Virus record (IMG/VR): IMGVR_UViG_3300048837_000795
Span: 1,424-65,423 of that record
From: a virus
Lineage: Duplodnaviria > Caudoviricetes
Length of the DNA stretch: 64,000 nt
Strand: one strand, 5' to 3'
This document shows, piece after piece, positions 1 through 57,952 of the stretch. Under the pieces are notes generated by a model. The model was not told the origin of the DNA, ran no database searches, and worked only from the letters and a program-made list of their open reading frames with translations. Made by a program: the position numbers and the translations under genes. Position 1 is the stretch's first letter, and every line of letters begins with the position of its first letter.

Positions 1-203
1 ATCACAGACAAAGTGTCTTTCCAAACGTTTGAAGGATCAAACATGTTATGAATGGTGTAAGAGTAAGAGAAAGGGGATTGACTAGTTTTTTCACTGCGGC
101 CCTGTTTCCATCCCATCACGTGCTCACCGATCAGGAGATTTAATTCCTTGCCGGCTTCGAGCTCTTCAACAAACATACGGTCAATAATCATGGCTGTTCT
201 CAT
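1..203 (-). CDS. Partial phage protein, ABA-sandwich/BC1872-like (runs off window start)
   Basis: Hand translation from ATG at 203: MRTAMIIDRMFVEELEAGKELNLLIGEHVMGW...FDPSNVW; EAGxELxxLxxExVMGW pattern typical of this family. Confidence 0.55.
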   Translation of the reverse strand, partial: MRTAMIIDRMFVEELEAGKELNLLIGEHVMGWKQGRSEKTSQSPFSYSYTIHNMFDPSNVWKDTLSV

Positions 204-229
204 ATAGACTTACTTTAGTAATGCTATAC
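202..229. repeat. 11-6-11 inverted-repeat site (copy 1 of 9)
   Basis: ATATAGACTTA CTTTAG TAATGCTATAC. Confidence 0.65.
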
Positions 230-234
230 AATCG

Positions 235-375
235 CCTGTGAGGCATATAGAATGACGTTGCCTTGCCTGAATAGCCCTGTGAGGGCTCCTGTGCGGCCCT
301 GTGCGGCCCTGTGCGGTTCCTGTGCGGTGCCTTTGAGGCCTATGAGAGCCTTAGAGGGCTACGTGCCCTGCGCGG
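235..375 (+). repeat. Array of about 10 CCTGTG(A/C)GG direct repeats, ~10-bp period in the core
   Basis: Copies at 235, 276, 288, 298, 308, 319; degenerate copies at 330, 339, 349, 367. Confidence 0.85.
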
Positions 376-1648
376 AAATACCCGCCAATTTCTCCAGTTC
401 GGGTGTAGTTTTCCGCGAAGAAACTGCGTCAACCGGATGGGTCAGCCAGCCGCGGCGCTCCCACTCCTCGGCGGTGGTACGGATCTTCCATTCCGTCGCG
501 CGCCCGTCCATCATTTCAGCCAGCCGCTTGATCTTGAACTGCCCCCCCATCGTCTCAATCGCTAAGCGCACCAGCGTGCATTCAATCTCGGTCAGCGCGT
601 TGACCGGCGCGGTCCCGCCGCCCAACCAATCCGACTCGGCCTGCGGGTCGAGCATGTAGGTCTGGATGGGCTGGTATTGGCCGGCCAGGCGCAAGACGGC
701 CCTGCCTGGTCGCTGGATCTGGTTGGCATACAGGCCCCACGAGCGGTTATCCAGCGTTACCGACCCGCCGGTATCGTCGGCCATGCGGAAACATAACCGG
801 GTCTGGAGCATGCCCGACAGCTCGCGGCTCACATCTTTCGCGCGCCAGTTGTGCGCGGCCAAAACCATGTGCAGGCCCCACTTGCGCCCGCGCCTGGCCA
901 CCTCACCCAGTAGCCGCACGATCTCCTTATCACCCATGACCGTGTTGGCCTCATCGACCAGCAGCAGCACGCGCTTGAGTTTGTCGGGCGAGACCAAGTT
1001 ATAGGCATCCATATCATCCGGCGGCATGTCACCAATTGAGCGATACAGCGCCGCGCGCCGGGCAATCTCCGACTCCAGCAGCTCCAATAACTCTAAAACA
1101 TCGTCGCCCGAGGATGCGATGGGCCGGCCGGTGACCCGCTCCCAGGCCGCGCCAAACGTATGACCATCCGGGTCGGCAAGGTAAATATCCCAGCCGTGCA
1201 CCCGCGCCGTGTGGGAAAGCACGCGCAGGAAGGTGCTTTTACCCGAGCCTTGTCCGCCGCCGATCAGCATGTTTTGCCATGCCCGCGCGTCGGCCATGAT
1301 CGGCCCGCGCATACCTATGCCGAAGTCAAAGTTTTCCGGGCCGGGGAATGCCGGCAGTTGTGCGCTGTCTGGCAGCGCCGGTTTATTCGACAGTAGCACG
1401 GCGTATCTCAGGCCGGTCGAATTGGAAATGACTACAGGCCGGCCGCCCAGCGCGGTCGAAAGTGAGTGAACCAGGTCCTGGGTGATGTACGGCGCGAGTT
1501 TTGGCAGCGCGGGTAATACCCCGATCAGCCAGGCGTAGCCGTCGCGCTCGACCAGCAGCCAGCGTTCGGGCGTCTGTAGCTGGCGCGCCGTCATCATCTC
1601 GACAATCAGAGTCTTGACTGCCTGCGCCTGAGCCAGATAACTTTTCAC
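359..1648 (-). CDS. FtsK/SpoIIIE (TraB-like) DNA translocase ATPase with probable C-terminal winged helix
   Basis: Walker A GGGQGSGKST, Walker B LLLVDEA, ARRGRKWGLHMVLA, RLCFR, PGRA motifs of the FtsK family. Confidence 0.85.
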   Translation of the reverse strand: MKSYLAQAQAVKTLIVEMMTARQLQTPERWLLVERDGYAWLIGVLPALPKLAPYITQDLVHSLSTALGGRPVVISNSTGLRYAVLLSNKPALPDSAQLPAFPGPENFDFGIGMRGPIMADARAWQNMLIGGGQGSGKSTFLRVLSHTARVHGWDIYLADPDGHTFGAAWERVTGRPIASSGDDVLELLELLESEIARRAALYRSIGDMPPDDMDAYNLVSPDKLKRVLLLVDEANTVMGDKEIVRLLGEVARRGRKWGLHMVLAAHNWRAKDVSRELSGMLQTRLCFRMADDTGGSVTLDNRSWGLYANQIQRPGRAVLRLAGQYQPIQTYMLDPQAESDWLGGGTAPVNALTEIECTLVRLAIETMGGQFKIKRLAEMMDGRATEWKIRTTAEEWERRGWLTHPVDAVSSRKTTPELEKLAGISAQGT

Positions 1649-2607
1649 TTTCCACCCCCTTGCATCAACAGTTTGCGCTCAACCTCATCCAGAATATTAC
1701 CCATCGCCGGGTCGCCCGGGTCGATAATCTCAATCTCGCCGGCAGTGCGCGGCGCATCTAGTGCCGGCGGGGGAAAGCTGGAAGGCGTGGCCCGCAGCAG
1801 GTCAATCTTCTGTTCGTTTTGCTTGACCAGCAGCTGGACGGCCGGCGGGGTCTGCTCGGGCGCGGCGGTATTCATCACCGGGTTGACCTGCAAATTGGGG
1901 TTGATCGCCAGGCCGTTTTTGATTTGCACCGGGTATTTGCCCTGGGCATTGGCGTGCACCTCTTTGTACTCGGTCTTTTTCCACACCCAGCGGTAAGCCA
2001 GCAGCCCCAGCAGGCCCAGTAAAAAGGTGGGAATCGCCCATTTGGTCACGGCCCAAACGGTGACCATCGTTTTGCGCGATTGGATATCCAGGGCGCGTTT
2101 CTCCTGCTCAGCGTCGTTTTTTTCGGCGATGGCTGTGGCGGCCTCGTTGGTCACCGCCATCTCCGCGCTGAAAACCGCCTGGGTCTGGGTGCTGGCAATG
2201 GCGGAGGCCTTCCTGCGCTCGATCGCGTTATCGGTGGACATGATCGAGCCTGCCGTGGCCGTTTGACCGTCGATGCGCAGCCGGTAAGCAAACTCGGTCG
2301 CCTGCGCGTACTCGCCGGCCACACGGAACGCCTCAGCCGTGTTGGCTGCGCGCCAGGTACTATCGGCGTCGGCTACCATGCGGGCAGCCACGGCAGTCTC
2401 TTCCAGCCCGCTGTATCCGCGGGGAGCTTCGAGCACAGGCAGGCGAAAGACCGCTGCGCTGGCAGGTTGGTTCGGATCGCCCAGCGCGGAAGAGGCAAAC
2501 GCCGCCATACCCAAACACACCAGGATGATCAGGAAGATCATTACCCCTGAGTTCCCGCCGGAAGACCTGGAACCACCGCCCTCGTGATGACCGCCGTATC
2601 CACTCAT
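1645..2607 (-). CDS. Two-TM membrane protein with Ala-rich helical region, translationally coupled to the FtsK-like gene
   Basis: ATG 2607 with GGAGG; hydrophobic segments VMIFLIILVCLGMAAFAS and WAIPTFLLGLLGLLAYRW; 4-nt overlap with next gene. Confidence 0.7.
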   Translation of the reverse strand: MSGYGGHHEGGGSRSSGGNSGVMIFLIILVCLGMAAFASSALGDPNQPASAAVFRLPVLEAPRGYSGLEETAVAARMVADADSTWRAANTAEAFRVAGEYAQATEFAYRLRIDGQTATAGSIMSTDNAIERRKASAIASTQTQAVFSAEMAVTNEAATAIAEKNDAEQEKRALDIQSRKTMVTVWAVTKWAIPTFLLGLLGLLAYRWVWKKTEYKEVHANAQGKYPVQIKNGLAINPNLQVNPVMNTAAPEQTPPAVQLLVKQNEQKIDLLRATPSSFPPPALDAPRTAGEIEIIDPGDPAMGNILDEVERKLLMQGGGK

Positions 2608-2608
2608 G

Positions 2609-3526
2609 TTATCCCTCCCAAAAGGGGATGAACCCTTTAACCTGCTTTGCGATCGCCCGATAAACGTCTTTATCAATCAGTACGATCTTTACTTCCGGGT
2701 AGTACTTCGCCATTCGATCCAGCTTTGTTTTTGACTTTTGATCCATCCAACCTTTAACCTCGTGGTACTCGATCGACCCGTCGCAGCCGTAAACCTTGAA
2801 ATCTGGAAGATAGGATCTTGTACCGCGCTTTATAGCGTGAAACTCAAAAACATCCGGCTCGAATTCCCACTTTGCAATCTGACCAATGGAGATAAGCCAA
2901 TTCAGGTATCTTGCGTAATTGGCCTCCCAGGCGGAGCGAAAATACTTTCCGTCCAGGTCATCGCGCCTGCCCATTCTCCCGCTACTATATCCCTGGCGAA
3001 GCTTCCCCTCTTTTTGCATTGCAGTCATACGATCAGAGCATGCCTGTGATCTTTCGTCCGAATTCAATTTAGAATCAGGATTTGCCCATGCGAGAGTGAT
3101 ACCTTTTGACATCAATTCTCTGGTGCTTTCAGTATGCGTTTTCCCTCTGTGTCCTTTCGGATGCTCATGGGTTTTATGCCATTCCTTTACAAGCAAAGAC
3201 ATCTTTCTTATTTGACCCCGTGACTTCTTCCTGTTCTGGTTGGTCAACCCGAGCTCCCGGGCCTTGCGAGAAATATTTGCCTTATCACGTGAAAACAAAA
3301 CTTCAAGCGCATCCAGATTTATTTCATCTCCCTGGTAGTGTTCACGCAGTATCTCGATCTCTTTGTCGGTCCAGAATTCATGGCGCTTTCTCCAACCCAT
3401 CTTCCAGCATAGGTTTCTTACAGATGTTTCGTTGCGTCCAAGAACTGAAGCAATGTCTTTATACTCCAGGGTCTGGTAATTCAGTTTGACCAGCTCGATC
3501 TCGTGATCCTGCCATTTTCCCATCAT
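2609..3526 (-). CDS. PD-(D/E)XK endonuclease with N-terminal HTH/NUMOD-like repeats (possible homing endonuclease)
   Basis: RSAWEANYA..WEFEP..YLPDF..YHEVKG; W-x-x-x-E-x-x-x-L repeats; more AT-rich than neighbours. Confidence 0.7.
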   Translation of the reverse strand: MMGKWQDHEIELVKLNYQTLEYKDIASVLGRNETSVRNLCWKMGWRKRHEFWTDKEIEILREHYQGDEINLDALEVLFSRDKANISRKARELGLTNQNRKKSRGQIRKMSLLVKEWHKTHEHPKGHRGKTHTESTRELMSKGITLAWANPDSKLNSDERSQACSDRMTAMQKEGKLRQGYSSGRMGRRDDLDGKYFRSAWEANYARYLNWLISIGQIAKWEFEPDVFEFHAIKRGTRSYLPDFKVYGCDGSIEYHEVKGWMDQKSKTKLDRMAKYYPEVKIVLIDKDVYRAIAKQVKGFIPFWEG

Positions 3527-3684
3527 ACCGCGCTCCCTCCATCCTGGCATACTTGCGCGCCGGGCCACAGCTGCGAATACAATTCCTGCCTGCGCTGGAT
3601 CTCCGCGGCAAGCTGGCGCTCAGCCGGCCAGTCACCGCGCAGAATTGCTAAACAGCGCTCGATTTCCAGCCGGGTGTCAGTCAT
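3523..3684 (-). CDS. Small hypothetical protein
   Basis: MTDTRLEIERC... overlaps both neighbours. Confidence 0.45.
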   Translation of the reverse strand: MTDTRLEIERCLAILRGDWPAERQLAAEIQRRQELYSQLWPGAQVCQDGGSAV

Positions 3685-4633
3685 TGTAAAGGCCTCGCTG
3701 AGCGCGGGCGCCCAAAATCTCGCGCACGTCGCAGCCCTCGACTTCAACCGGCACCCCGCCCGAAATGCGAGAGGCCAAATAGGCCATATCCTCGGGCAGC
3801 GAGTCGGGGTTGTTTTTCATGGCCAGCACGGTCAGCAATCCGCTCGATTCGTAGCGGGTATCCAGCAGGCGGTGCATTGTCTGCATCACCCACGGCGTGT
3901 GGGCAATCTGGTCAAGCTCATCGATGGCCAGCACCGGGATCTGCCGCGTCTCGCGGATCGCCGCCTCGACCGCAATGCCGCCACGGTCATCGCCGAACAT
4001 ATCGCGGATCTCGGCGATCAGGTCGGAGGCGTTGACGTAGCGCGAGCGCACGCCAATCCCCCGAAAGCCGTTGACCAGGCTTTTGAGCAAATGGCTCTTT
4101 CCCCGGCCAGGCTGGCCCCAGAACGTGACGAAGCCCTCGGGCCGCTCATTCATACCCAGCATGTTGCGCGCAGCGCGCTGCGCGAGCTGCTTTTCCGCAA
4201 AATCGCCGGTCACACGGAACTGCTCCAGTGAGACAGACAAATCATCGCCTTTTAAACCGCAGTTTGCGCGGAGGTAATCCTTCCACGCCTCACCGGTGCA
4301 CCGCGGGCAGGGGCTGGAATGCGTCTCGCCAGTGTACCAGCCTGGGACGGGTGTCGGCAGCCACTTGACCTTACCGCCATTGGGTTGGGCGTAGGGGCCG
4401 GAGACGGACACAAAGACAAACATCAGCCGCGCCCCGCCGCAGTTACGGCAGAGATTGGCAACGGCATTATCAGGCGCGTCGACCAGCAGCTTTGTCGCCT
4501 TCGGGTTATCCAGCAGCGCAACCAGGTCAGCCGGCCATATTCTCCCGTCAGGGATAGGCCGCTCGGGCGGAAGCGATTCTAATTCCGGCGCGTCTATCTG
4601 AATATCGCTGAGTATATTCTGAATAGTGGTCAT
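3677..4633 (-). CDS. DnaC/IstB-like ATPase (helicase loader)
   Basis: CxxC pairs, Walker A GQPGRGKS, Walker B LAIDEL, LLDTRY; follows the initiator gene. Confidence 0.85.
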   Translation of the reverse strand: MTTIQNILSDIQIDAPELESLPPERPIPDGRIWPADLVALLDNPKATKLLVDAPDNAVANLCRNCGGARLMFVFVSVSGPYAQPNGGKVKWLPTPVPGWYTGETHSSPCPRCTGEAWKDYLRANCGLKGDDLSVSLEQFRVTGDFAEKQLAQRAARNMLGMNERPEGFVTFWGQPGRGKSHLLKSLVNGFRGIGVRSRYVNASDLIAEIRDMFGDDRGGIAVEAAIRETRQIPVLAIDELDQIAHTPWVMQTMHRLLDTRYESSGLLTVLAMKNNPDSLPEDMAYLASRISGGVPVEVEGCDVREILGARAQRGLYND

Positions 4634-5724
4634 GCTTTCACCCCTTTCCCGCGCAGGTAAATCTGATAATCGTTCTCAGTCACCGTCTCGCCGAATAAGT
4701 CCAGGTTCTTACGCTGGAAAACCTCGAAAGAGTCCACGTCAGTGAACGCCGGCTTACTGGCGCGCAGCTCCGCAGCCTTAGCGGTCACATAGTACGTCAG
4801 CGACCCGGGCCGGCCTGGCATAAACCGTTTGTCAATCTGCTGGCCTTTCCAATCCTCGTGGTATGCCCGTAAAGCATTTAGGCCGAATTCGCCGCAAGCC
4901 TCACGCAGATCGCGGGCCTCGTTGATCCATAGGCCATGCTGCCCGGCCTTTTTTCCAGCCTTTGCCGGCGGAACAAGTTTCCACAAACGGCAGACCTCCC
5001 GAATGATCTCGCGGGTATCTTCCGGATAAGAGGAAAAATCGATCTCCCCTTTCCGCGCCTCGAACTTCTGCAAGGCTGCCAACGCGCCGGCGTTTTTGAC
5101 CGTTCCGTTTCCGTTGGAGGCAGCGGGCGCGTCAGCGCCCAAATCTTTGTTAGTCTCTGAAGTACCCTCTGTAGGAATAGTCTCTGTTAATGGTTCTCGC
5201 CGTTTGGCGAGAAGGTTTTCGCCGTTTGGCAATTCCCTTTTCGCCGTTTGGCGAGAACCACCGTTTTCGCCGTTTGGCGAAAAGGGAATTTTGGCATTCG
5301 CGAGCTTCGCTTCCGGGGTGTATGGATTGATAAATGGTTTAGCCGCCCACTCATTCCACAAAGCCAAAAAGCGATCTTCGACCAGCCGCAGGTGCAAGGT
5401 TGGGTCGCGATTGAACTGGAAGAGTTTCTTTTCGATCAGCCCGGTTTTTACCAAAATCGCCAGGATCCGGTCTGATTGATCAGGGGTAATCCTGACCCGC
5501 TCATACCATTCGTAACGGCGGGCAGCGATCCAGAACTTACCCTCGTGTTCCACGCGCAGCTTTGAGCCGCCCTCTTTGGTTGGGAGATACCAATAGACAA
5601 TCTCGCTCAACACCAGGCCGGCCAGTACATCCCCGCCGGCCATATCCACGTAGATCTTTTTGAAATCAATCGTGTCGCGGGAAGCGCGCTCCCACTGGAA
5701 GAACCGATCCATCGATGACATCAC
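4630..5724 (-). CDS. Phage replication initiator (N-terminal winged HTH)
   Basis: AGLVLSEIVYWY...WIA...W wHTH pattern, low-complexity linker, adjacent to DnaC-like gene. Confidence 0.75.
   Translation of the reverse strand: MMSSMDRFFQWERASRDTIDFKKIYVDMAGGDVLAGLVLSEIVYWYLPTKEGGSKLRVEHEGKFWIAARRYEWYERVRITPDQSDRILAILVKTGLIEKKLFQFNRDPTLHLRLVEDRFLALWNEWAAKPFINPYTPEAKLANAKIPFSPNGENGGSRQTAKRELPNGENLLAKRREPLTETIPTEGTSETNKDLGADAPAASNGNGTVKNAGALAALQKFEARKGEIDFSSYPEDTREIIREVCRLWKLVPPAKAGKKAGQHGLWINEARDLREACGEFGLNALRAYHEDWKGQQIDKRFMPGRPGSLTYYVTAKAAELRASKPAFTDVDSFEVFQRKNLDLFGETVTENDYQIYLRGKGVKA
5196..5283 (+). repeat. TTTTCGCCGTTTGGC repeats inside the initiator gene (iteron-like, candidate origin)
   Basis: Four copies of TCGCCGTTTGGC near 5197, 5219, 5241 and 5267; lambdoid origins lie within the initiator gene. 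Confidence 0.6.
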
Positions 5725-6080
5725 TCAGAGTCCCCCTCGGCACTCGATTCGGCCTCTTCCTGGCCTTCCACGCTCCGGATAGAGCCGGTGAAAGACGGCA
5801 CCGCCTCGACCTCGACGAAAACGGTATAGATCCGGTTCGTGCGCGGGTCGCTGACGGTAATCGTCATAGAATTTGGATAATCAAAGTCACCGAAACGATC
5901 TTCGAGGTATTCTTCAGCGGCCTTCTCCGGACTATCCGCGTAAACCGGTACAAGATCTTCCGGGTCATAATCTTCAGGCCCGCAGAGATACATCGGCGGG
6001 CATTTGTGCCCGTATAGAAAAGTTCTTTCTTTGCATGTCGGGCATTCGCCCCAGCTGTTCGCCCAGTCGCTCATAGCCAC
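5721..6080 (-). CDS. Hypothetical protein with N-terminal Zn-binding motif
   Basis: CPTC...HKC; acidic; RBS upstream. Confidence 0.6.
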   Translation of the reverse strand: MAMSDWANSWGECPTCKERTFLYGHKCPPMYLCGPEDYDPEDLVPVYADSPEKAAEEYLEDRFGDFDYPNSMTITVSDPRTNRIYTVFVEVEAVPSFTGSIRSVEGQEEAESSAEGDSE

Positions 6081-6117
6081 GCTCCCCTCACCAGTCAGAA
6101 TATAAAAACATCTAACC

Positions 6118-6146
6118 TAAAACCGGTTTCGCGTGAATTAATTAAG
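6118..6146 (-). promoter_or_regulatory. 29-bp putative middle promoter driving the replication operon
   Basis: Minus strand CTTAATTAATTCACGCGAAACCGGTTTTA. Confidence 0.75.
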
Positions 6147-6405
6147 CAGCGTCCCAGTTATTGGCCTGACCGGCTTGAAACTCGTGCCCGAGCTGGGCCT
6201 GCGCTGCCAGAATCGAGCGGCGCACCCGCTCGATATCCGTCAGTACGGGCGTGAGCAGCTCGCGCATTTCTTCGCGCCGGCTGATCGCCTGGCGCACGCG
6301 CAGCTCATCATGCTCAAGGATGGCCAGCGCCGTGCCCAGCGAGTAGAGGCGGTCCTCGACCGACGCCTGGCGCGCGTCGGCCGATCTGGATAATTGGCCC
6401 TTCAT
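6142..6405 (-). CDS. Hypothetical helical protein
   Basis: ORF coupled to the upstream gene by ATGA overlap. Confidence 0.55.
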   Translation of the reverse strand: MKGQLSRSADARQASVEDRLYSLGTALAILEHDELRVRQAISRREEMRELLTPVLTDIERVRRSILAAQAQLGHEFQAGQANNWDAA

Positions 6406-6764
6406 GGCCGCTCTTCCATCTGCCGGGCCCGCAGCGCCTCGCGCTCTTCTGCCTCGCGGGCGCGCAAACCGCGCTCGTGCCAGCTATCCAGCGCGTATAG
6501 AGCGCCAACCGTCAGGCCGGCGGAAACCACAATTGCCCATAGCGCTAAGGCCGCTGTGTAGGGTGATATATAACCAATTTCAAATTGGCACCAAATTAGT
6601 AGGGCTGTATAAGGCAGCAAAATCCCTAACAGTCCTAGAATATAGTTATAGATAGGATGGAGTCGATCACGACCAACAAGATAACGCCACGGCCAGTAAT
6701 GCTCCCCAACCATGACCACCGCGGCAAAAATCGCAGCCAACATTACGGAAAATAGAATACTCAT
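6402..6764 (-). CDS. Three-TM membrane protein
   Basis: ATG 6764 with GGAGG; three hydrophobic helices. Confidence 0.6.
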   Translation of the reverse strand: MSILFSVMLAAIFAAVVMVGEHYWPWRYLVGRDRLHPIYNYILGLLGILLPYTALLIWCQFEIGYISPYTAALALWAIVVSAGLTVGALYALDSWHERGLRAREAEEREALRARQMEERP

Positions 6765-6822
6765 GGAAGACCTCCCAGAAACGAATATGTCACGGGAGCG
6801 GATCCTCGCTATTATAAAAAGC

Positions 6823-7692
6823 ATGCTCAACGACGTGGACCGCTTCCTGAACGAAACAGACTACAGCCCAGCCACCGCGGTATCCTACGGGTACCATCTC
6901 AAACGGTTGGCGGACTGGTTAGATGCTGTTTGCATCCCCCCTGAGCATCTCAATGCGTCCTTACTGCGCACCTATCTCGGGTCCCACGGCTGGCGCAACA
7001 ACTGTCAGCGGCTGGCCGGCAATGCCGCGAAAAGTTTTTTGAAGTGGCGTTACGGCGCGACTCATGCGGCGCTGAGCCTCAAGCTGCCAAAGGACGACTC
7101 TGCCCCCGGCCGCGCATTGGACCAGGTCGAGGTCGACCGGCTGCTGGCTGTGTTCGACACGACCAAAGCCGTCGGCTGGCGCGACCTGGCCATGCTGGCG
7201 TTGATGGTTGAGTCAGGCATCCGCGAGGCAGAAGTCTGCCGTCTGGAGCTGGATTACCTCGACCTGCGCAAGATGCGCTTCGATGTGCTGGCCAAAGGAC
7301 GCGACTGGCGAGAGGGCGTCTTTTCGCCCATTACCGCGCAGTACCTGGATATCTGGCTGAATGCCAGAAAGGAGTTTGCCTATCCACCAAAATGCCCTTA
7401 TGTGTTTGTGAGTGTGAATGGCAAGACCAAAGGGCGTCGTATGACGCCCGGCGGTCTGCGGGCCAATTTTCGTAAAATGGGAGTACGGGCAGAATTGGGG
7501 AAATTCTCTCCGCACGTCATGCGCCGTACAATGGCAACGCTATTGATTTTAAACGGCGCGCCTACCCGGCTGGTGCAGGAGCTCGGAGGCTGGAGTGATA
7601 TCCAGATGGTCGAGCGCTACACGCGCACGATCAATCCTCAACAAATCGAGCAGTATTCCCCGCTCTGCAATCCTATAGGGTTATCAAAGTAA
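6823..7692 (+). CDS. int: Tyrosine recombinase/integrase (XerC/D-like; start uncertain, ORF open from 6712)
   Basis: RDLAML..SGIREAEV (R), AKG (K), SPHVMRR (HxxR), LGGWSD (W), MVERY (Y). Confidence 0.92.
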   Translation: MLNDVDRFLNETDYSPATAVSYGYHLKRLADWLDAVCIPPEHLNASLLRTYLGSHGWRNNCQRLAGNAAKSFLKWRYGATHAALSLKLPKDDSAPGRALDQVEVDRLLAVFDTTKAVGWRDLAMLALMVESGIREAEVCRLELDYLDLRKMRFDVLAKGRDWREGVFSPITAQYLDIWLNARKEFAYPPKCPYVFVSVNGKTKGRRMTPGGLRANFRKMGVRAELGKFSPHVMRRTMATLLILNGAPTRLVQELGGWSDIQMVERYTRTINPQQIEQYSPLCNPIGLSK

Positions 7693-7700
7693 TCCGATAA
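7673..7700. repeat. 11-6-11 site (copy 2), overlapping the integrase stop codon
   Basis: CTATAGGGTTA TCAAAG TAATCCGATAA. Confidence 0.8.
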
Positions 7701-7725
7701 GATGACTCCTACCCTACCCAAAACA

Positions 7726-7767
7726 GCGGTCCTGCGGTAAAATAATAGCCGCAAGACCGCTTTTCTT
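7726..7767 (+). terminator. Intrinsic terminator after integrase
   Basis: GCGGTC-C-TGCGG...CCGCA-A-GACCGC followed by TTTTCTT. Confidence 0.6.
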
Positions 7768-7820
7768 GGCTCACTAGCTCAATTGGCAGAGCAATTGACT
7801 CTTAATCAATGGGATTTAGG
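7768..7820 (+). tRNA. Truncated tRNA-Lys(CTT), 5' portion only; probable attP
   Basis: GGCTCAC TA GCTC AATTGGCA GAGC A ATTGA CT CTT AA TCAAT GGG; T-arm degenerate, no 3' acceptor strand; ~75 bp after integrase. Confidence 0.75.
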
Positions 7821-7875
7821 GTCAACGGATCCGAGAAAATGCGGTTTTTTTGTTGTTAACGTGCTAGGTGACTAC

Positions 7876-8199
7876 ATGACTGAGAGCCTGAAACTCTTCA
7901 ACGTTTTTGGGATGGTGACAGTCAGGCATAACCGCATCGTCGCATTGGCGACGGCAATTTTGCCAGGTGGCAGCAGCTGTGAGCGGACTCTGGCGCGCGA
8001 CATCGACCCACCACTGAGCGTGATCGCGGATAACAAATCATTAACCTTGCTGTTTGCGGCCTCCCTGCGCGGGGAAACCCGGGCCGAGGTGGCCGTCCAG
8101 CAGGTATCCGCGCGGACGGGCGCGGCGTCGGTGATCGACGAGCCGGCCGTGCAAAGCGCGATTGAGGATGTGATTGGTCTGGTGCGCAAAGCTCTATAA
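7876..8199 (+). CDS. Hypothetical protein
   Basis: ATG 7876 preceded by AGGTG. Confidence 0.55.
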   Translation: MTESLKLFNVFGMVTVRHNRIVALATAILPGGSSCERTLARDIDPPLSVIADNKSLTLLFAASLRGETRAEVAVQQVSARTGAASVIDEPAVQSAIEDVIGLVRKAL

Positions 8200-8280
8200 G
8201 CCTCTACAGCCTACCGGCTGATACGGCGCCGCTGATCCTGGTGACACCTGGCTGGATCGACAGTTCAGCGGACATCGATG

Positions 8281-8315
8281 CCCGGCCCCCATTTTGAGGG
8301 GCTGGGTTGTTTTTA
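8281..8315. terminator. Terminator between convergent genes
   Basis: CCCGGCCCC..GGGGCTGGG followed by TTGTTTTT. Confidence 0.55.
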
Positions 8316-8316
8316 A

Positions 8317-8565: not shown

Positions 8566-8584
8566 AAAACCTCCATTTCGGTTT

Positions 8585-8613
8585 ATTGTATACTGTTAGT
8601 ATTCCACTGTCAA
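8585..8613 (-). promoter_or_regulatory. sigma70 promoter for the repressor
   Basis: Minus strand TTGACA-N17-TACAAT. Confidence 0.85.
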
Positions 8614-8666
8614 CAAAGGAAATGTGCCTATAAACTCATATAATCTAAGGAAATTCTTTTACACTG

Positions 8667-8695
8667 TTGACAATGCACTAGAAAAGCCTTACAAT
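8667..8695 (+). promoter_or_regulatory. sigma70 early lytic promoter
   Basis: TTGACA-N17-TACAAT. Confidence 0.85.
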
Positions 8696-8904: not shown

Positions 8905-8913
8905 GGGGACACG

Positions 8914-9460: not shown

Positions 9461-9470
9461 GATTCTCGTG

Positions 9471-17563: not shown

Positions 17564-17591
17564 CTATGCAATTATCAAAGTAATCCGATAG
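17564..17591. repeat. 11-6-11 site (copy 3)
   Basis: CTATGCAATTA TCAAAG TAATCCGATAG. Confidence 0.8.
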
Positions 17592-17595: not shown

Positions 17596-17624
17596 CTTAA
17601 TTTTTTGCGCCGAAACCGGTTTTA
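17596..17624 (+). promoter_or_regulatory. 29-bp putative middle promoter
   Basis: CTTAATTTTTTGCGCCGAAACCGGTTTTA. Confidence 0.8.
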
Positions 17625-22424: not shown

Positions 22425-22452
22425 CTTTGGAATTATCTTAGTAAGTCTATAG
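22425..22452. repeat. 11-6-11 site (copy 4)
   Basis: CTTTGGAATTA TCTTAG TAAGTCTATAG. Confidence 0.7.
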
Positions 22453-29888: not shown

Positions 29889-29916
29889 CTAACGAGTTAT
29901 CAAAGTAACCCTATAG
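29889..29916. repeat. 11-6-11 site (copy 5)
   Basis: CTAACGAGTTA TCAAAG TAACCCTATAG. Confidence 0.8.
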
Positions 29917-29968: not shown

Positions 29969-31513
29969 ATGAACCAGATCCAAGCCATTGAAATTTTAGA
30001 GCGCTATATCCGCGCTCGTTATCCGATCATCGCCACACTCAGCCACGAAGAGACCCGCGTCATGGCGGCCATCCGCGCCGCCGCCAACAGCCGCAAGATG
30101 GAGCTCGTCGAATGGTCCATCACCACCGGCCTGTTGGGGGAGGGCTTTGACGCTTCCGGCACGCGCGACGTGGTCGCCGCGTTCGAGGCTATGCTGGGCG
30201 CATCCACTGACCGCTCGATCCTGTTTGTCATGCGCGACCTGCACGGCGCGCTGGGCAACGCGGACCGTGGGCATGATCCGCTGATCACGCGCTACCTGCG
30301 CGACCTGGCTGAGAAATTCGCCGCCTGCCGCAATACTCTGGTGCTGCTGTCGCCGGCCTTCTCGATCCCCTCGGACCTCGACAAAACCATCGTACTGATC
30401 GACTGGCCGCTGCCCGACTCGGAAGAGCTGGGCGCGGTGCTCACAAAGGCCGAGATCGACCTGCCGGCGTCTATCCCCTACACCCTCAACGGCAACCGCG
30501 ACCGGGTTATCCAGGCCATGCGCGGCCTGACGCTGTTCGAGGCCGAGTCGGTGCTCTCTTCCGGCATTGTCGCCACGCGGCAGTTGGGCGATAACATCAT
30601 CCCCTTTATCGTCAAGGAAAAGGCGCAGATCATCCGCAAGGCCGGCGTGTTGGAATACTACGACACCGACGTGACCATGAACCAGGTGGGCGGGCTGCAA
30701 TATCTCAAGGAATATTCCGCGATCAAGCGCAAAGCCTTCTCACGCGAGGCTGCCGCCGCGGGTGTGGATGCGCCAAAGGGCTTGCTGCTGGTCGGCATCC
30801 CCGGCACCGGTAAATCCCTGGCCGCCAAAGCCATTGCCGGCGGGCAAATGCCCCTGCTGCGCATGGACGTGGGCGCGCTGATGGGTGGGCTGGTCGGGCA
30901 GAGTGAGGGCAATATGCGCGCCGCGCTCAAGGTTGCAGAGGCCGTTGCCCCGTGTGCGCTCTGGTTGGATGAAATCGAGAAAGCAATCTCGGGCGGCGGT
31001 GGGGAGCTGGACGGCGGCACGAGTGCGCGCGTCTTTGGCACGCTGCTGACCTGGATGCAGGAGACCACGGCGCCGGTTTACGTAATAGCCACCGCAAACG
31101 ATATCCGCTCCCTGCGCCCCGAGCTGATCCGGCGCTTTGACGATATGATGTGGGTCGACCTGCCCAACCAGGCGGCGCGCGTCGAGATCCTGACGGTACA
31201 CCTGTCCAAACGCCGGCAGGACGCTTCCCGCATCGACCTAGAGTCGGCCGCCCGGGCCACCTGGGGTTTCTCGGGCGCGGAGATCGAAAAGACGGTCAAG
31301 AGCGCGTTGGAACGGGCATTCTCACAGGGCCAGGAGCTCAGCACGGATTACCTGCTCAAGGCTGCCTCGAAAATTGTCCCCATCGCCGTGACGATGGAAA
31401 ACAAGATCAAAGACCTGCGCGCCCAGGCCCAGCACGCGCTGCAGGCCGGCGATCCGCTGGAGACAAAGCCGGCAGCCGTTGCAAGCCGGGCGGTCGACCT
31501 GAGCGATTTATAA
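29969..31513 (+). CDS. Ycf46-like AAA+ ATPase
   Basis: IRARYPII..EETR N-terminus; VGGL..LK; PKGLLLVGIPGTGKSL; LWLDEIEK; ATAN; PELIRRFD. Confidence 0.88.
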   Translation: MNQIQAIEILERYIRARYPIIATLSHEETRVMAAIRAAANSRKMELVEWSITTGLLGEGFDASGTRDVVAAFEAMLGASTDRSILFVMRDLHGALGNADRGHDPLITRYLRDLAEKFAACRNTLVLLSPAFSIPSDLDKTIVLIDWPLPDSEELGAVLTKAEIDLPASIPYTLNGNRDRVIQAMRGLTLFEAESVLSSGIVATRQLGDNIIPFIVKEKAQIIRKAGVLEYYDTDVTMNQVGGLQYLKEYSAIKRKAFSREAAAAGVDAPKGLLLVGIPGTGKSLAAKAIAGGQMPLLRMDVGALMGGLVGQSEGNMRAALKVAEAVAPCALWLDEIEKAISGGGGELDGGTSARVFGTLLTWMQETTAPVYVIATANDIRSLRPELIRRFDDMMWVDLPNQAARVEILTVHLSKRRQDASRIDLESAARATWGFSGAEIEKTVKSALERAFSQGQELSTDYLLKAASKIVPIAVTMENKIKDLRAQAQHALQAGDPLETKPAAVASRAVDLSDL

Positions 31514-31622: not shown

Positions 31623-31650
31623 CTATAACGTTGTTTAAGTAATTCGATAG
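31623..31650. repeat. 11-6-11 site (copy 6)
   Basis: CTATAACGTTG TTTAAG TAATTCGATAG. Confidence 0.7.
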
Positions 31651-40504: not shown

Positions 40505-40532
40505 CTATAGAATTATTTAAATAACCGCAAAG
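40505..40532. repeat. 11-6-11 site (copy 7)
   Basis: CTATAGAATTA TTTAAA TAACCGCAAAG; fills the gap between tape measure and next gene. Confidence 0.7.
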
Positions 40533-51206: not shown

Positions 51207-51218
51207 TATGTACCTCGC

Positions 51219-51307
51219 AAAACAAAAAGCGCCAATCCCGGTCAGGAGATTGGCGCAGAGGCTCAGAAAATAGGGTTGTTATCGAATTGTCATAATCATT
51301 ATAACGC
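51219..51307 (-). promoter_or_regulatory. Putative late promoter plus leader terminator
   Basis: GCGTTATAAT (51298-51307); TGAGCCTCTGCGCC leader; GCGCCAATC..GATTGGCGC TTTTTGTTTT. Confidence 0.7.
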
Positions 51308-51314
51308 AGCCCAT

Positions 51315-51623
51315 TTACGGGTAAAAATGCGACTGCGCCACGCTCAGCGCGCCTTCGCCGGCTACGACCCGGCTGCCCGTGCCCTCCACCCTGTAGAACC
51401 AGGTGCCGGCGCGGGTAAAGGTGACATAGAAGTGGTACTGGCCCTGCGAGTCTCGGACTACCTCGGGAGCAGCGCCGTAGACCCAGGTCGTGCGCAGACC
51501 GCCCGGGTCGGGCGAGTCGACCTTGACGGTAACCACATCCGGGTCGAGCGGCAGGCCGGTGACCAGGTCGGTAAATATTACGGTGATCAGTGCGCGGTCA
51601 CCAACGTTCCAGATATTCTCCAT
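51315..51623 (-). CDS. Small Ig-like virion protein
   Basis: GD; D..G...DP; G.YH; G.W.YR..GTG. Confidence 0.6.
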   Translation of the reverse strand: MENIWNVGDRALITVIFTDLVTGLPLDPDVVTVKVDSPDPGGLRTTWVYGAAPEVVRDSQGQYHFYVTFTRAGTWFYRVEGTGSRVVAGEGALSVAQSHFYP

Positions 51624-53755: not shown

Positions 53756-54157
53756 TTACGCGTTTGGCCCGGTGAGGGTAAAGCTGGTGATGGTGATCTG
53801 CTGGGTAGCCACAACTACGTTGTTATCCAGGGTAATATCCCCGCCCCCACCTGTGATGGTGACCGAGCCTTGATCGTGACAGGTCGCGCCCTGCTTGATG
53901 CGGAAGTGCGCGACGGTGCCGGGATTGTCAGCGCTCAAATCCTGCCACGTACCCAACAACGCCTTGCTGCCGGCATTGGCTGCCGCCATCCAGTCAGCCG
54001 GTAATGCCAACGACGCGACTAACGTGCCGCTGTCTGCCGCGGCGCAGTTGGCCGGCTGCGCGCCGGTGCGCAGCTCAAGCGTCGGGGAAGCGCCGATAGT
54101 CGACTCGTACACGTCCAGGATCGCATTGCGGACCGCCACGGAAAATTGATGTGCCAT
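53756..54157 (-). CDS. Virion fibre-base protein
   Basis: RNAILD..L..RTG.QP..A..GT.L..FRI..DQG.V..GGD..LDN, a common phage structural pattern. Confidence 0.65.
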   Translation of the reverse strand: MAHQFSVAVRNAILDVYESTIGASPTLELRTGAQPANCAAADSGTLVASLALPADWMAAANAGSKALLGTWQDLSADNPGTVAHFRIKQGATCHDQGSVTITGGGGDITLDNNVVVATQQITITSFTLTGPNA

Positions 54158-54168
54158 TTTTATGCTCC

Positions 54169-54238
54169 TTAAAAATAAAGCGCCAGTCTCGGGGTGAGAA
54201 AGGCGCAGAGGCTCAAATCGTTACAGTCATTATAACGC
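54169..54238 (-). promoter_or_regulatory. Putative late promoter plus leader terminator
   Basis: GCGTTATAAT (54229-54238); TGAGCCTCTGCGCC; hairpin then TTTATTTTT. Confidence 0.7.
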
Positions 54239-54265
54239 GGAGAGCAAAACCGTTTCTTTCGAAGT

Positions 54266-54293
54266 CTATAGAATTATTTTAGTAATCGAATAA
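54266..54293. repeat. 11-6-11 site (copy 8)
   Basis: CTATAGAATTA TTTTAG TAATCGAATAA. Confidence 0.75.
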
Positions 54294-54340
54294 CCATTTT
54301 GATATAGATCGATGTATAATTAATTGTATGAACAACGCAG

Positions 54341-54412
54341 CGTGCTTTTGTGTGAAAGGCTCAACGGCGGGATCTAGCCCGCCAAAGCGGGTGCAACGCC
54401 CACCAAAGCGCG
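54341..54412 (+). ncRNA. tRNA-like cloverleaf RNA with CUA in the anticodon-position loop
   Basis: CGTGCTTTTG/CAAAGCGCG acceptor; TGA-AAGGC-TCA; GGCGGG-ATCTAG-CCCGCC; GCGGG-TGCAACG-CCCAC; TATAAT upstream, 12-bp hairpin 54419-54448 downstream. Confidence 0.5.
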
Positions 54413-54509
54413 AACGGTAAACGATCCTGGCGGCCACCGGGGTCGTTTGCGTTTAATGGGTGGTAAAGAGCTGCAAAACAGCTAGAACAGGTAATAAGAA
54501 TTAGCGGAC

Positions 54510-57057: not shown

Positions 57058-57106
57058 GCCCCACCTCCCTCAGTACAGGTAATGTTCGTTATCCTGCACA
57101 CCTCGA

Positions 57107-57424
57107 TCACGCCTGCCACTGATACTCAAGCACAGCGCCGGCGGCTTCGCGGAAGAAGCGGATATCCGCGCCAGCCACGCCGATGATGACCGGCGTGATT
57201 TCCTTCTGGAGCTGGAAACCGATTGCCGCGGTCGGGTCTACACCGTCCAGGCGGAATCGGGCATTTTGAGCAGTGACCTGCACCATGATCTGCACCGCGC
57301 CGGCGGGCCGGGTCAGCACCGCGGCAGCCGCGCCCAGCGCAACCTGGGTATGCGCGCCGACGGGCTCGTAGTATTCGGTCAGGTAAACGGGAGTAACCTC
57401 TTGTCCATTATCGAGTGATTTCAT
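57107..57424 (-). CDS. Small virion protein
   Basis: ARFRLDGVDPTA..GF.L; GGAGG RBS. Confidence 0.65.
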   Translation of the reverse strand: MKSLDNGQEVTPVYLTEYYEPVGAHTQVALGAAAAVLTRPAGAVQIMVQVTAQNARFRLDGVDPTAAIGFQLQKEITPVIIGVAGADIRFFREAAGAVLEYQWQA

Positions 57425-57444
57425 TCTGCCTCCAAAACTTGGCT

Positions 57445-57505
57445 AAACAAAAAGCCCCCACGAATATACTCGTGAGGGCTCAAGGCGCTGATATCAGTAT
57501 AACGC
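57445..57505 (-). promoter_or_regulatory. Putative late promoter plus leader terminator
   Basis: GCGTTATACT (57496-57505); AGCCCTCACG..CGTGGGGGCT TTTTGTTT. Confidence 0.7.
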
Positions 57506-57510
57506 GAATC

Positions 57511-57750
57511 CTATTCCGCCTCAGCCCGCCGCTTCAGCTCGATAAACGCCAGGTTCAACCGCAGCGGACCAGCCTCGCATCGGTAGTCACACCGCTCTAG
57601 CTGCGACACAATCTCGCTTAGCGTCGCGTCGGCAAAGATGTTGGGCTGCGCCGGCTCGATGCGGAAATAGCCCGACACTACCGGCAGCGCCGGCTGAGTT
57701 CCCGCTGGCTTTGGACAGCGGTTATATTTACGCATGGTCGTGCTCCCCAT
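57511..57750 (-). CDS. Hypothetical protein
   Basis: IVSQLE.C.Y.CEAGPL..N.AF..LK. Confidence 0.5.
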   Translation of the reverse strand: MGSTTMRKYNRCPKPAGTQPALPVVSGYFRIEPAQPNIFADATLSEIVSQLERCDYRCEAGPLRLNLAFIELKRRAEAE

Positions 57751-57952
57751 CCTCTCTATGAGATTGTTTAAGTAAGTCTATAAAGGTTTCCAGCGCCTCG
57801 AAAGGCACGACAAACCGCGGCCCGCCCAGCAGGGCCGCGCGGTGCGGGTCTTTCTCGTAGAACTCCAGGCCCTGGCTGCCGTTGTATTTAAACGGCAGCT
57901 TCGCGCCCTTCCACCAGACAAAGCCGTCAGCAGCCACGATCAAATCAGACAT
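57728..57952 (-). CDS. Hypothetical protein
   Basis: Starts directly after the portal stop. Confidence 0.55.
   Translation of the reverse strand: MSDLIVAADGFVWWKGAKLPFKYNGSQGLEFYEKDPHRAALLGGPRFVVPFEALETFIDLLKQSHREDGEHDHA
57756..57783. repeat. 11-6-11 site (copy 9, intragenic)
   Basis: CTATGAGATTG TTTAAG TAAGTCTATAA. Confidence 0.7.

What the first reader, a model, noticed from the sequence alone, without database searches (positions are those of the whole stretch)
202..57783. Nine dispersed 28-bp 11-6-11 inverted-repeat sites (CTATAGnnTTA-N6-TAAnnCTATAG) across the genome
Seen: sites at 202, 7673, 17564, 22425, 29889, 31623, 40505, 54266 and 57756, AT-rich in a GC-rich genome. Spacers are asymmetric and mostly co-oriented (TCAAAG x3, TTTAAG x2, TCTTAG, TTTAAA, TTTTAG, CTTTAG). 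One overlaps the recombinase stop codon; most lie at module boundaries. Known: 11-bp arms around a 6-bp spacer is the geometry of XerCD/dif-type sites, where spacer identity governs partner choice. Inference A: the phage recombinase excises or shuffles modules between same-spacer direct sites (7673/17564/29889; 31623/57756). Inference B: they are genome-wide operators, since two end 4 nt before the middle-promoter motif and others overlap an RBS or start codon.
Basis: partly seen in the sequence, partly recalled or inferred. Interest (0 to 1): 0.85.

Follow-up and report, generated by a model that had tools for sequence, protein, structure and literature searches.

The report
Dispersed 28-bp dyad sites in phage
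Nine copies of a 28-base mirror-symmetric DNA word sit in the gaps between genes of this uncultured temperate phage, its relatives carry their own versions at the same places, and the sites most likely dock a still unidentified DNA-binding regulator and are not recombination sites.

Summary
All nine sites are at the stated coordinates. A matrix built from the nine themselves scores them 34-42 bits against 15.5 for the next best place, and 0.01 matches are expected by chance.

The "6-bp spacer" is really the inner part of a 14+14 dyad, CTATAG-NN-TTAYYW.

The motif runs through a phage lineage. Six more viral records and one MAG contig carry 2-36 lineage-specific versions. Most lie in non-coding gaps (67 of 88). 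A site lies upstream of the same unknown 412-aa gene in 5 of 5 viral genomes and 20 of 26 metagenome loci.

The two arms do not co-vary, so this is not a hairpin.

Reading A (integrase shuffling) is not supported. One relative rated complete has 8 sites and no recombinase, and a tRNA-like stretch lies beside int.

Reading B (genome-wide operators) is the best fit. No binder was found, and no site lies at the sigma-70 immunity promoters.

The constant-strand asymmetry is real: 17:1 in relative G001, independent of gene strand. It remains unexplained.

The scan has flagged dispersed phage palindromes in other genomes before.

The parts
202..229 (.). dyad site 1; overlaps or abuts the start of a minus-strand ORF and lies downstream of the FtsK-like gene
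   Evidence: both half-sites within 1 mismatch
7673..7700 (.). dyad site 2; its inner TAA is the stop codon of the integrase ORF 6712-7692; a tRNA-like stretch follows at 7768-7824
17564..17591 (.). dyad site 3; 9 nt after terminator-like hairpin 17528-17554 and 4 nt before the middle-promoter motif 17596-17624; 56 nt before the 412-aa gene
22425..22452 (.). dyad site 4; follows hairpin 22397-22416; its right arm runs into the ribosome-binding site of ORF 22465-22722 (12 nt to the ATG)
29889..29916 (.). dyad site 5; 8 nt after terminator-like hairpin 29857-29880 and 4 nt before the middle-promoter motif 29921-29949; 52 nt before the AAA ATPase gene
31623..31650 (.). dyad site 6; 15 nt before the middle-promoter motif 31666-31694, ahead of the DUF1257/DUF2997 genes
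40505..40532 (.). dyad site 7; fills the gap between the tape-measure stop (40536) and the start of the 832-aa tail gene (40495) on the minus strand
54266..54293 (.). dyad site 8; on the minus strand it lies 27 nt upstream of the late motif 54238-54229 and just downstream of a conserved 150-bp non-coding element (54300-54455)
57756..57783 (.). dyad site 9; 5 nt upstream of the start of minus-strand ORF 57511-57750; an orthologous site is present in L101
17648..18886 (+). 412-aa gene of unknown fold; the site just upstream is kept in all relatives examined
29969..31513 (+). AAA ATPase gene (PF00004); a site lies upstream in 4 of 5 viral genomes (absent there in G002)
17596..17624 (+). middle-promoter-like motif next to site 3 (the same motif lies at 29921-29949 and 31666-31694 next to sites 5 and 6)
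54229..54238 (-). late-promoter-like motif GCGTTATAAT next to site 8

Best explanation
The nine 28-mers are binding sites on double-stranded DNA for a sequence-specific protein with two-fold symmetry, either a dimer or a pair of dimers. Each half-site has two contact blocks, CTATAG and TTAY, about one helical turn apart. The protein is most likely phage-encoded and co-evolves with its sites. The sites lie at the 5' edges of genes and transcription units. Some sit just upstream of phage-sigma promoter motifs, some follow terminators, and some lie on top of ribosome-binding sites. Bound protein would then control transcription across the whole genome. It would hinder or help RNA polymerase at promoters, and it would block elongation where the site lies inside an operon. 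Shown here: the sites are real, non-random, mostly non-coding and not hairpins. They are kept by position, with lineage-specific spelling, across a deep phage lineage. Inferred: that a protein binds them, that it is phage-encoded, and the direction of the effect. The binder was not identified.
For: Statistics. The dyad has no isolated half-sites. The motif is lineage-wide. G001 has 22 sites, G002 36, G003 13, G004 8, L101 2, with further sites in G005 and L168. Reversed-pattern controls gave 0 in G000-G005. Outer blocks and cores differ between genomes while the frame YTAT-N4-TTAY-N4-RTAA-N4-ATAR is kept. Site centres are non-coding in 7/9, 17/22, 24/36, 12/13 and 7/8 sites, against 12-24% expected (p 1e-5 to 5e-10, my own crude gene calls). 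Position is conserved. A site lies between a terminator or promoter and the ribosome-binding site of the 412-aa gene in 5 of 5 viral genomes, and of the AAA gene in 4 of 5. In the metagenome loci a pattern hit ends 0-104 nt upstream of the estimated 412-aa start in 20 of 26 loci that include the 5' flank. Overall there were 104 hits against 25 in reversed sequence over 249 kb. Placement relative to promoter-like motifs shifts between lineages: site then promoter in G000 and G001; promoter then site in G002, L192 and L206; terminator then site then ribosome-binding site in G003 and G004. This is how operators behave, not fixed promoter parts. The arms do not co-vary in any of 5 genomes: observed Watson-Crick pairs are at or below the shuffle mean, p(>=obs) 0.81-1.0. 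That excludes RNA or single-strand hairpin function. Known precedents for genome-wide phage operators exist (PMC6550527, passages read; PMC9283540, abstract seen).
Against: No binder was identified. The only proteins shared by all seven records are the 412-aa protein and the AAA ATPase. The 412-aa model (pLDDT 89.9) matches only generic helical bundles. The 135-aa protein shared by 6 of 7 records gave weak AspA hits by profile (E 0.05-0.15), but its model (pLDDT 84.7) is not a winged helix and has no fold match. No site lies in the immunity region, where two sigma-70-type promoters (TTGACA-N17-TACAAT) face apart and carry different repeated boxes. The sites are therefore probably not the lysogeny repressor's operators. 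The inner asymmetry keeps one genome strand whatever the gene direction (G001 17:1, with 7 in + and 7 in - gene contexts; G000 7:0). A simple transcription operator does not predict this. The distance from site to promoter motif varies (0-15 nt to middle-type motifs, 19 or 27 nt to late motifs), so there is no fixed activator geometry. A host factor cannot be excluded, because the hosts are unknown.
Confidence: 0.5

Rival explanations
1. Polar DNA-level sites. The bound complex, or the site itself, acts on a machine that runs one way along the whole genome, such as a replication fork, the packaging motor or a translocase, or it is nicked on one strand. This would explain why the asymmetric core keeps one strand regardless of transcription.
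For: G001 has 17 forward and 1 reverse core (binomial p 1.4e-4), with 7 forward in + gene contexts and 7 forward in - gene contexts. An independent EM orientation gave 19:3. In G000 all 7 asymmetric sites share one orientation, including 2 in minus-strand late genes. Read in the direction of the early genes, both genomes put TTATC on the same side. Site 202 lies next to the repeat array and the replication module (DnaD-like, IstB-like).
Against: In G000 and G001 early and late genes lie on opposite strands, so 'one genome strand' cannot be separated from 'opposite orientation at early and late genes'. G002's core is symmetric and shows no bias (19:17). In G003 and G004 the flank asymmetry follows gene direction. 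G005 is mixed. A DNA-level role does not explain why sites keep to gene starts and non-coding gaps. No reads were available to look for nicks.
Confidence: 0.15
2. The 28-mers are themselves promoters, with the two outer hexamers 16 bp apart acting as -35 and -10 for one of the two phage sigma factors, or as a T7-style promoter ending in CTATAG.
For: The geometry 6+16+6 equals a sigma-type promoter. The phage encodes two sigma-like proteins. In G003, G004 and many metagenome loci nothing else lies between terminator and ribosome-binding site, and there the upstream arm reads CTGAAC or CTAAAC. The gene-proximal arm is the better-kept one in 6 of the 8 sites where one half-site is clearly better kept. 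CTATAG is, as I recall, the last six bases of the T7-class promoter.
Against: By my gene calls, 34 of 88 sites end less than 18 nt from the next start codon, and the ribosome-binding site lies inside or right after the arm. A sigma-type start about 7 nt downstream would then cut off the ribosome-binding site. In G000 and G001 a separate promoter motif lies between site and gene. In G002 the promoter motif lies upstream of the site. Core orientation does not follow gene direction. No T7-type RNA polymerase (PF00940) was found in G000-G004, though that search had no positive control, and none appeared among the large ORFs.
Confidence: 0.1
3. Binding sites of a host protein, such as a nucleoid-associated or global regulator that prefers A+T-rich DNA, which the phages exploit.
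For: The sites are 72% A+T in a 58% G+C genome. An invariant skeleton (TTA-N6-TAA plus outer TA steps) is shared by all lineages. No phage binder was found.
Against: The variable blocks are lineage-specific and consistent within each genome, as expected of a private protein-site pair. The hosts are unknown, so this could not be tested.
Confidence: 0.08
4. One reading: Xer/dif-like core sites at which the phage tyrosine recombinase excises or shuffles modules between sites with the same spacer.
For: The 11-6-11 geometry and the co-oriented asymmetric centres. One site touches the int stop codon. Homology blocks between G003 and G004 often end at or near sites. The unit of 150-bp element plus site lies before a different late promoter in L101 than in the window.
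Against: G004 has 8 sites and no tyrosine or serine recombinase. There are 9-36 co-oriented sites per genome with many identical centres, which would fragment the genome. The 'spacer' is conserved as part of the half-site. A tRNA-like stretch that could be attP lies beside int. No base-precise junction falls at a site in L101 against the window. Block ends at gene boundaries are common in phage mosaics.
Confidence: 0.03
5. Selfish or RNA-level palindromes: REP/MITE-like hairpins, or start-associated sequences acting on mRNA.
For: The sites are non-coding, repeated and palindromic. Many abut ribosome-binding sites, as the start-associated sequences of Cluster K mycobacteriophages are said to do (mentioned in PMC4351075).
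Against: The arms do not co-vary in any genome. Sites upstream of promoter motifs would not be in the mRNA. The same strand is kept for genes of both directions.
Confidence: 0.04

Closest known systems
Operator/stoperator sites of Cluster A mycobacteriophages (L5, Bxb1; PMC6550527 passages read, PMC9283540 abstract seen)
   Same: Both have 20-30 sites spread through a temperate phage genome. Most are in short non-coding gaps, and not all are at promoters. Each lineage has its own spelling that co-varies with its protein. Bound protein is thought to block initiation and elongation.
   Different: Stoperators are 13-bp asymmetric sites read by a monomeric repressor. They point with transcription, and the same motif is the operator of the early lytic promoter. 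Here the site is a 28-bp dyad and its core keeps one genome strand whatever the gene direction. No copy lies at the sigma-70 immunity promoters. One relative has no integrase.
17-bp dyad repeat of Cluster O mycobacteriophages (5'-TGTTCGGNNNCCGAACA, 34 copies in Corndog; PMC4351075, passages read)
   Same: Both are dyad-symmetric repeats scattered through the genome with an asymmetric centre, and in both the function and binder are unknown. Cluster O phages also carry an AAA ATPase about 35% identical to the one here.
   Different: The Cluster O repeat is 7-3-7, invariant in its arms, and about one third of copies are inside genes. The authors saw little evidence of meaningful orientation with regard to transcription. 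Here the site is 28 bp with two-block half-sites, the arms are degenerate, most sites are non-coding, and there is a strong strand bias in G001. More distant AAA-bearing viral loci (49 of 51) lack the TTA-N6-TAA motif, so the motif is not tied to the AAA gene.
Global palindromic operators of broad-host-range plasmids (KorA/KorB of RK2) and the conserved inverted repeats bound by the phiC31 repressor (both recalled; not found in the library)
   Same: One regulator binds many palindromic sites, at varied distances from promoters, across a whole mobile genome.
   Different: Those binders are known (a ParB-family protein and the c repressor). Neither family was sought or seen here, and neither system is reported, as far as I recall, to keep a constant strand.
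XerCD/dif-type tyrosine-recombinase core sites
   Same: Nominal 11-6-11 layout with an asymmetric centre.
   Different: dif is a single site per replicon with a cognate recombinase. Here there are 9-36 sites per genome, the centre is part of the conserved half-site, and the sites are present without any recombinase in G004.

Membership tests
Xer/dif-like or other tyrosine-recombinase core site | Two inverted arms of about 11 bp around a 6-8 bp centre whose sequence is free but must match between partners | tested here: not met
   The layout can be drawn as 11-6-11, but the centre is conserved as part of the half-site (TTA-Y-Y-W).
Xer/dif-like or other tyrosine-recombinase core site | A cognate recombinase in every genome that carries the sites | tested here: not met
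   PF00589 was found in G001, G002 and G003 but not in G004 (rated 100% complete, 8 sites) or G005 (a fragment). PF00239 was found in 0 of 5.
Xer/dif-like or other tyrosine-recombinase core site | Recombinant junctions between sites | not testable with these tools
   No run was listed and read laying was not used. No base-precise junction was seen in L101 against the window.
Cluster A stoperator/operator system | Many copies genome-wide, mostly in short non-coding gaps | tested here: met
Cluster A stoperator/operator system | [quoted passage not shown] | tested here: not met
   G001 has 7 forward sites in + contexts and 7 forward in - contexts. G000's two late-strand sites keep the orientation of the early-strand sites.
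Cluster A stoperator/operator system | The same motif serves as operator at the early lytic promoter beside the repressor gene | tested here: not met
   No matrix hit of 10 bits or more lies in 7701-17563. The immunity region 8560-8700 has sigma-70-type promoters with other repeated boxes.
Cluster A stoperator/operator system | Binding by the immunity repressor | not testable with these tools
   Needs EMSA or footprinting.
Sigma-type promoter | Two hexamers 16-18 bp apart, pointing at the gene, with room for a start site and a ribosome-binding site | tested here: not met
   The geometry fits (6+16+6). However, 34 of 88 sites end less than 18 nt from the start codon (crude gene calls), and core orientation ignores gene direction.
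T7-class promoter | A single-subunit RNA polymerase gene in the genome | tested here: inconclusive
   PF00940 was found in 0 of 5, but the control genomes also gave nothing. G000 is 83% complete.
REP-like or RNA hairpin element | Compensatory changes that keep the arms paired | tested here: not met
   Observed pairs are at or below the shuffle mean in 5 of 5 genomes.
Cluster O-type dispersed dyad repeat (function unknown) | A short dyad-symmetric word repeated tens of times through a phage genome and kept at the same positions among relatives | tested here: met
   The length, degeneracy and non-coding bias differ (PMC4351075).

The most novel reading that the evidence does not exclude
The sites are polar landmarks for a process that reads the phage chromosome in one direction. 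In two genomes whose early and late genes lie on opposite strands, the asymmetric core keeps the same strand at nearly every site (17:1 and 7:0). This is what one expects of oriented barriers or guides for a replication fork, packaging motor or translocase, or of strand-specific nick sites. It is not expected of transcription operators. The 412-aa protein of unknown fold that always travels with a site just upstream would belong to that system.
Probability: 0.15. Interest if true: 0.75.

Novelty: new variant of a known kind. Interest (0 to 1): 0.45.

Why it matters
Dispersed private palindromes keep turning up in phage genomes: Cluster A stoperators, the Cluster O repeats, and many windows of this scan. 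Outside Cluster A their binders and roles are unknown. This lineage offers an unusually tractable case for three reasons. The site is long and bipartite. It is kept upstream of the same two genes down to about 30% protein identity. Its core keeps a constant strand, which separates transcription-level from DNA-level explanations by a simple experiment. If the sites are operators, they define a whole-genome switch layered on a two-sigma cascade. If they are polar DNA sites, they would be a new kind of phage chromosome signal.

Tried and rejected
Hairpin or RNA function was rejected: the arms do not co-vary.

Integrase-driven recombination was rejected as the family-level function.

Host-type tRNA and known RNA families: ARAGORN found 0, and Rfam at gathering score found 0 in the window.

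Named relatives: none at DNA level. The best protein matches to named phages are 36-40% identical, so no literature on this lineage could be used.

Sequencing runs: none was listed. No test for junctions, circles or nicks was possible.

Binder search. The 412-aa protein had no PDB sequence hit and only a loose DUF3150 link, in 4 of 95 relatives. It had no Foldseek match at E<=0.001, and the best VIA-align row was Z 10.0, on a generic four-helix bundle covering residues 297-399. The 135-aa protein gave weak AspA profile hits that its model did not bear out. The atlas gave nothing usable.

The small ORFs upstream of the 412-aa gene in relatives have no DNA-binding family. The small SWIM zinc-finger ORF found in 5 of 7 records is not in G000 or G001.

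PHROGs and Pfam on 40 window ORFs gave four HTH or sigma-like candidates: 8317-8565, 8914-9411, 10974-11822 and 17282-17542. Nothing links any of them to the sites.

The link to the AAA gene was rejected as general: 49 of 51 AAA-bearing viral loci lack a TTA-N6-TAA cluster.

The weak matrix hit at 51279 is a late-promoter motif followed by a chance half-match, not a site.

A phiC31 paper on conserved inverted repeats was not found in the library. A search for DUF1257, DUF2997 and DUF3150 gave nothing on function. Supplementary files were not opened.

My gene calls in the relatives come from a home-made codon-bias caller. Distances to start codons and the coding or non-coding calls are therefore approximate. 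Gene starts are estimated from tblastn offsets. Several metagenome loci are near-duplicates (L186/L187, L177/L179, L181/L182, L183/L184/L196). L194 was dropped because it is G002's own record. The weak site 51279 was dropped from the G000 counts.

Full report
THE OBSERVATION. The window is bases 1424-65423 of a 65,423-bp viral record rated 83% complete. That search expects 0.01 matches by chance. A weight matrix built from the nine (so their scores are partly circular) scores them 34-42 bits, and the next best place (51279) scores 14-15.5 bits. That place is a late-promoter motif followed by a chance half-match. The sites average 72% A+T in a window of 41.7% A+T.

The half-site is CTATAG-NN-TTA-Y-Y-W, 14 bases, with the centre between bases 14 and 15. 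All 11 half-site matches in the window fall in or overlap the nine sites. Site 7673 covers the integrase stop codon. Sites 17564 and 29889 end 4 nt before a CTTAA-N15-CCGGTTWTA motif, and 31623 ends 15 nt before one. Site 54266 lies 27 nt upstream of a GCGTTATAAT motif on the late strand. Sites 202, 22425, 40505 and 57756 abut or overlap ribosome-binding sites or start codons. Sites 17564, 22425 and 29889 each follow a terminator-like hairpin.

THE GENOME. The record is a temperate siphovirus-like phage. It has three gene blocks:
- A replication block on the minus strand (1-6830): DnaD-like, IstB/DnaA-like AAA, a resolvase-like endonuclease and an FtsK-like ATPase.
- An early/middle block on the plus strand (6712-33200). 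It holds an integrase, a Cro/CI-type HTH, two sigma-like proteins, a DdrB-like protein, radical-SAM, DUF5131, Mom-like and PAPS-reductase-like genes, a helicase-methylase, an AAA ATPase, DUF1257 and DUF2997.
- A late block on the minus strand: terminase, portal, tape measure, tail and lysis genes.

There is no named close relative.

THE MOTIF IS LINEAGE-WIDE. A fragment 72% identical at DNA level (L101, the same contig as L060) has two sites, one orthologous to 57756 and one to 54266. A pattern scan of viral contigs (71 stretches) found two further records of like size and G+C with several or strong matches. The two nearest AAA-bearing records (L009, L010) also proved to carry the motif once their whole records were searched. 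A whole-record search found many sites in all four and none with the reversed pattern.

After refining a matrix per genome the counts are G000 9, G001 22, G002 36, G003 13, G004 8. A 28-kb fragment (G005) and a MAG contig (L168) carry sites too. The frame YTAT-N4-TTAY-N4-RTAA-N4-ATAR is shared. The outer blocks and the core are private to each genome.

By my own crude gene calls the site centres are non-coding in 7/9, 17/22, 24/36, 12/13 and 7/8 sites, against 12-24% expected. Many fill gaps of only 30-60 bases between genes of the same direction.

WHAT TRAVELS WITH THE SITES. Among seven records only two proteins are shared by all: the 412-aa ORF 17648-18886 and the AAA ATPase 29969-31513. 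A 135-aa ORF (9521-9928) is in six. In all five viral genomes a site lies between the preceding terminator or promoter and the ribosome-binding site of the 412-aa gene. For the AAA gene this holds in four of five.

A profile of the 412-aa protein finds 852 representative clusters. Forty metagenome loci were fetched and 39 were scanned; L194 was dropped because it is G002's own record. Of these, 26 include the 5' flank, and in 20 of the 26 a pattern hit ends 0-104 nt before the estimated start. Starts are estimated and some loci are near-duplicates. One of the six misses (L170) has a perfect 33-bp palindrome of another spelling at that place.

The order of site and promoter-like motif differs by lineage:
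- G000 and G001: site, then promoter, then ribosome-binding site.
- G002, L192 and L206: promoter, then site, then ribosome-binding site.
- G003 and G004: terminator, then site, then ribosome-binding site, with no other motif.

WHAT THE SITES ARE NOT.
- Not hairpins. In none of five genomes do the two arms co-vary. Watson-Crick pairs between mirrored positions are at or below the shuffle mean, and in G002 and G003 they are clearly below it. This also rules out an mRNA role, as does the presence of sites upstream of promoter motifs.
- Not integrase sites, at least as a family trait. G004, rated complete, has 8 sites and no tyrosine or serine recombinase. G001 has 11 and 5 co-oriented sites with identical cores, which a working recombinase would use to delete the genome. 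A tRNA-like stretch lies right beside int at 7768-7824 (Rfam tRNA 25.8 bits, below the family's gathering score of 29), where an attP might be expected. The L101 comparison shows a portable unit (150-bp element plus site) placed before a different late promoter, but no base-precise junction at the site. Homology blocks between G003 and G004 often end near sites, but the sites are at gene boundaries, where phage mosaics break anyway.
- Probably not plain promoters. The 6+16+6 geometry is suggestive. However, 34 of 88 sites end less than 18 nt from the next start codon, with the ribosome-binding site in or right after the arm. Separate promoter motifs exist beside them. No T7-type polymerase was seen, though that test was inconclusive.
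- Probably not the lysogeny repressor's operators. The region between the HTH gene (8317-8565, minus strand) and the rightward genes has two facing-apart TTGACA-N17-TACAAT promoters with other repeated boxes, and no 28-mer.

BEST READING. The sites are docking places on duplex DNA for a two-fold symmetric protein that evolves with them. They lie at the 5' edges of genes and transcription units, where the bound protein can act on initiation or block elongation. I put it at about 0.5.

It stays an inference because no binder was found. The 412-aa model is confident (pLDDT 89.9) but matches only generic helical bundles. The 135-aa model (pLDDT 84.7) is a three-stranded sheet with two helices and has no match, despite weak AspA profile hits. 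The HTH and sigma-like proteins cannot be tied to the sites.

WHAT REMAINS STRANGE. The inner core is asymmetric and keeps one strand. In G000, seven of nine sites read TTAT/TTGT on the left and TTAC (read on the other strand) on the right, all on the plus strand. This includes two sites among minus-strand late genes. The other two sites are symmetric at that position. In G001, 17 cores are forward and 1 is reverse (p 1.4e-4), with 7 forward among plus-strand genes and 7 among minus-strand genes. An orientation-blind EM run gave 19:3.

Stoperators point with transcription, and the Cluster O authors saw little evidence of meaningful orientation with regard to transcription. So this differs from both. 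Two descriptions fit equally well, because early and late genes lie on opposite strands in both genomes. Either the sites are polar with respect to the chromosome, or they are turned one way at early genes and the other way at late genes. G002's core is symmetric (19:17). In G003 and G004 the flank asymmetry follows the genes. G005 is mixed. I give a DNA-level polar role about 0.15.

COMPARISON AND VERDICT. Dispersed private repeats are a known feature of some phages: the asymmetric stoperators of Cluster A and the Cluster O 17-bp dyad of unknown function (PMC4351075). Earlier notes of this scan list many dispersed palindromes on other DNA (unchecked by me). This case is a new variant. It is a long bipartite dyad, mostly non-coding, conserved upstream of one unknown gene family down to about 30% identity, with a constant-strand core. 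It is of moderate interest.

Inference A is not supported. Inference B is the best available explanation but is unproven.

Noticed in passing
window 7768-7824 (+): A tRNA-like stretch with acceptor, D and anticodon arms and a CUU anticodon loop, but no T arm. Rfam tRNA scores 25.8 bits, E 0.0018, below the family's gathering score of 29, and ARAGORN calls nothing. It lies 76 nt after the integrase stop and could be the attP region.
   Followed up: partly
window 8585-8613 (-) and 8667-8695 (+): Two facing-apart sigma-70-type promoters, each TTGACA-N17-TACAAT, lie between the Cro/CI-type HTH gene and the rightward early genes. They carry repeated ACTGT-type boxes that differ from the 28-bp sites. 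This looks like the true immunity switch.
   Followed up: partly
window 8914-9411 (+) and 10974-11822 (+): Two phage sigma-like proteins: a 165-aa ECF-like one and a 282-aa one with regions 2, 3 and 4. They fit the two promoter-like motif classes: CTTAA-N15-CCGGTTWTA (9 copies) and GCGTTATAMT (8 copies, all on the late strand).
   Followed up: partly
window 54300-54455; L101 11085-11234: A 150-bp non-coding element is 77% conserved in the relative L101. There it lies, together with the dyad site, in front of a different late promoter (the one before the homologue of gene 49689-51206). It behaves as a portable unit. ARAGORN and Rfam call nothing there.
   Followed up: partly
window 17648-18886 (+): A 412-aa protein family with 852 representative clusters. 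The AlphaFold model is confident (pLDDT 89.9): an alpha/beta N-terminal part, a 75-residue helix and a C-terminal helical bundle. It has no informative fold match and only a loose link to DUF3150.
   Followed up: yes
window 9521-9928 (+): A 135-aa protein shared by 6 of 7 related records, with 56 homologues, all unnamed. It has invariant arginines and a conserved C-terminal LDLAYD-like tail, and its fold has no match. In G003 and G004 dyad sites lie between it and the sigma-like gene.
   Followed up: partly
window 11866-13517, 19972-25327: A cluster of likely DNA-modification genes: radical-SAM (Fer4_12), DUF5131, a DEAD-helicase/N6_N4 methylase fusion, a PAPS-reductase-like protein and a Mom-family protein.
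   Followed up: no
window 29969-32606 (+): An AAA ATPase followed by DUF1257 and DUF2997 proteins. The AAA gene is in all 7 related records, and the DUF1257 and DUF2997 genes are in 4 of them. Function unknown.
   Followed up: no
L170 about 7050-7085 (upstream of its 412-aa gene): In this 45%-identical relative a perfect 33-bp palindrome of a different spelling takes the place of the dyad site. It is followed by a motif like the window's middle-promoter motif.
   Followed up: no
G002 (L154) and L192, L206 upstream of the 412-aa gene: A promoter-like motif, TTGCACAAA-N-CGTTCTATAG, abuts or overlaps the left arm of the dyad site. In this sub-lineage the site would cover the transcription start region.
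   Followed up: no
window 51200-51320 and 54150-54240 (-): The two late promoter motifs examined here are each followed by a leader that shares the 14-mer TGAGCCTCTGCGCC and a terminator-like hairpin. L101 also has the beginning of the shared leader word (the displayed stretch ends before it is complete).
   Followed up: partly
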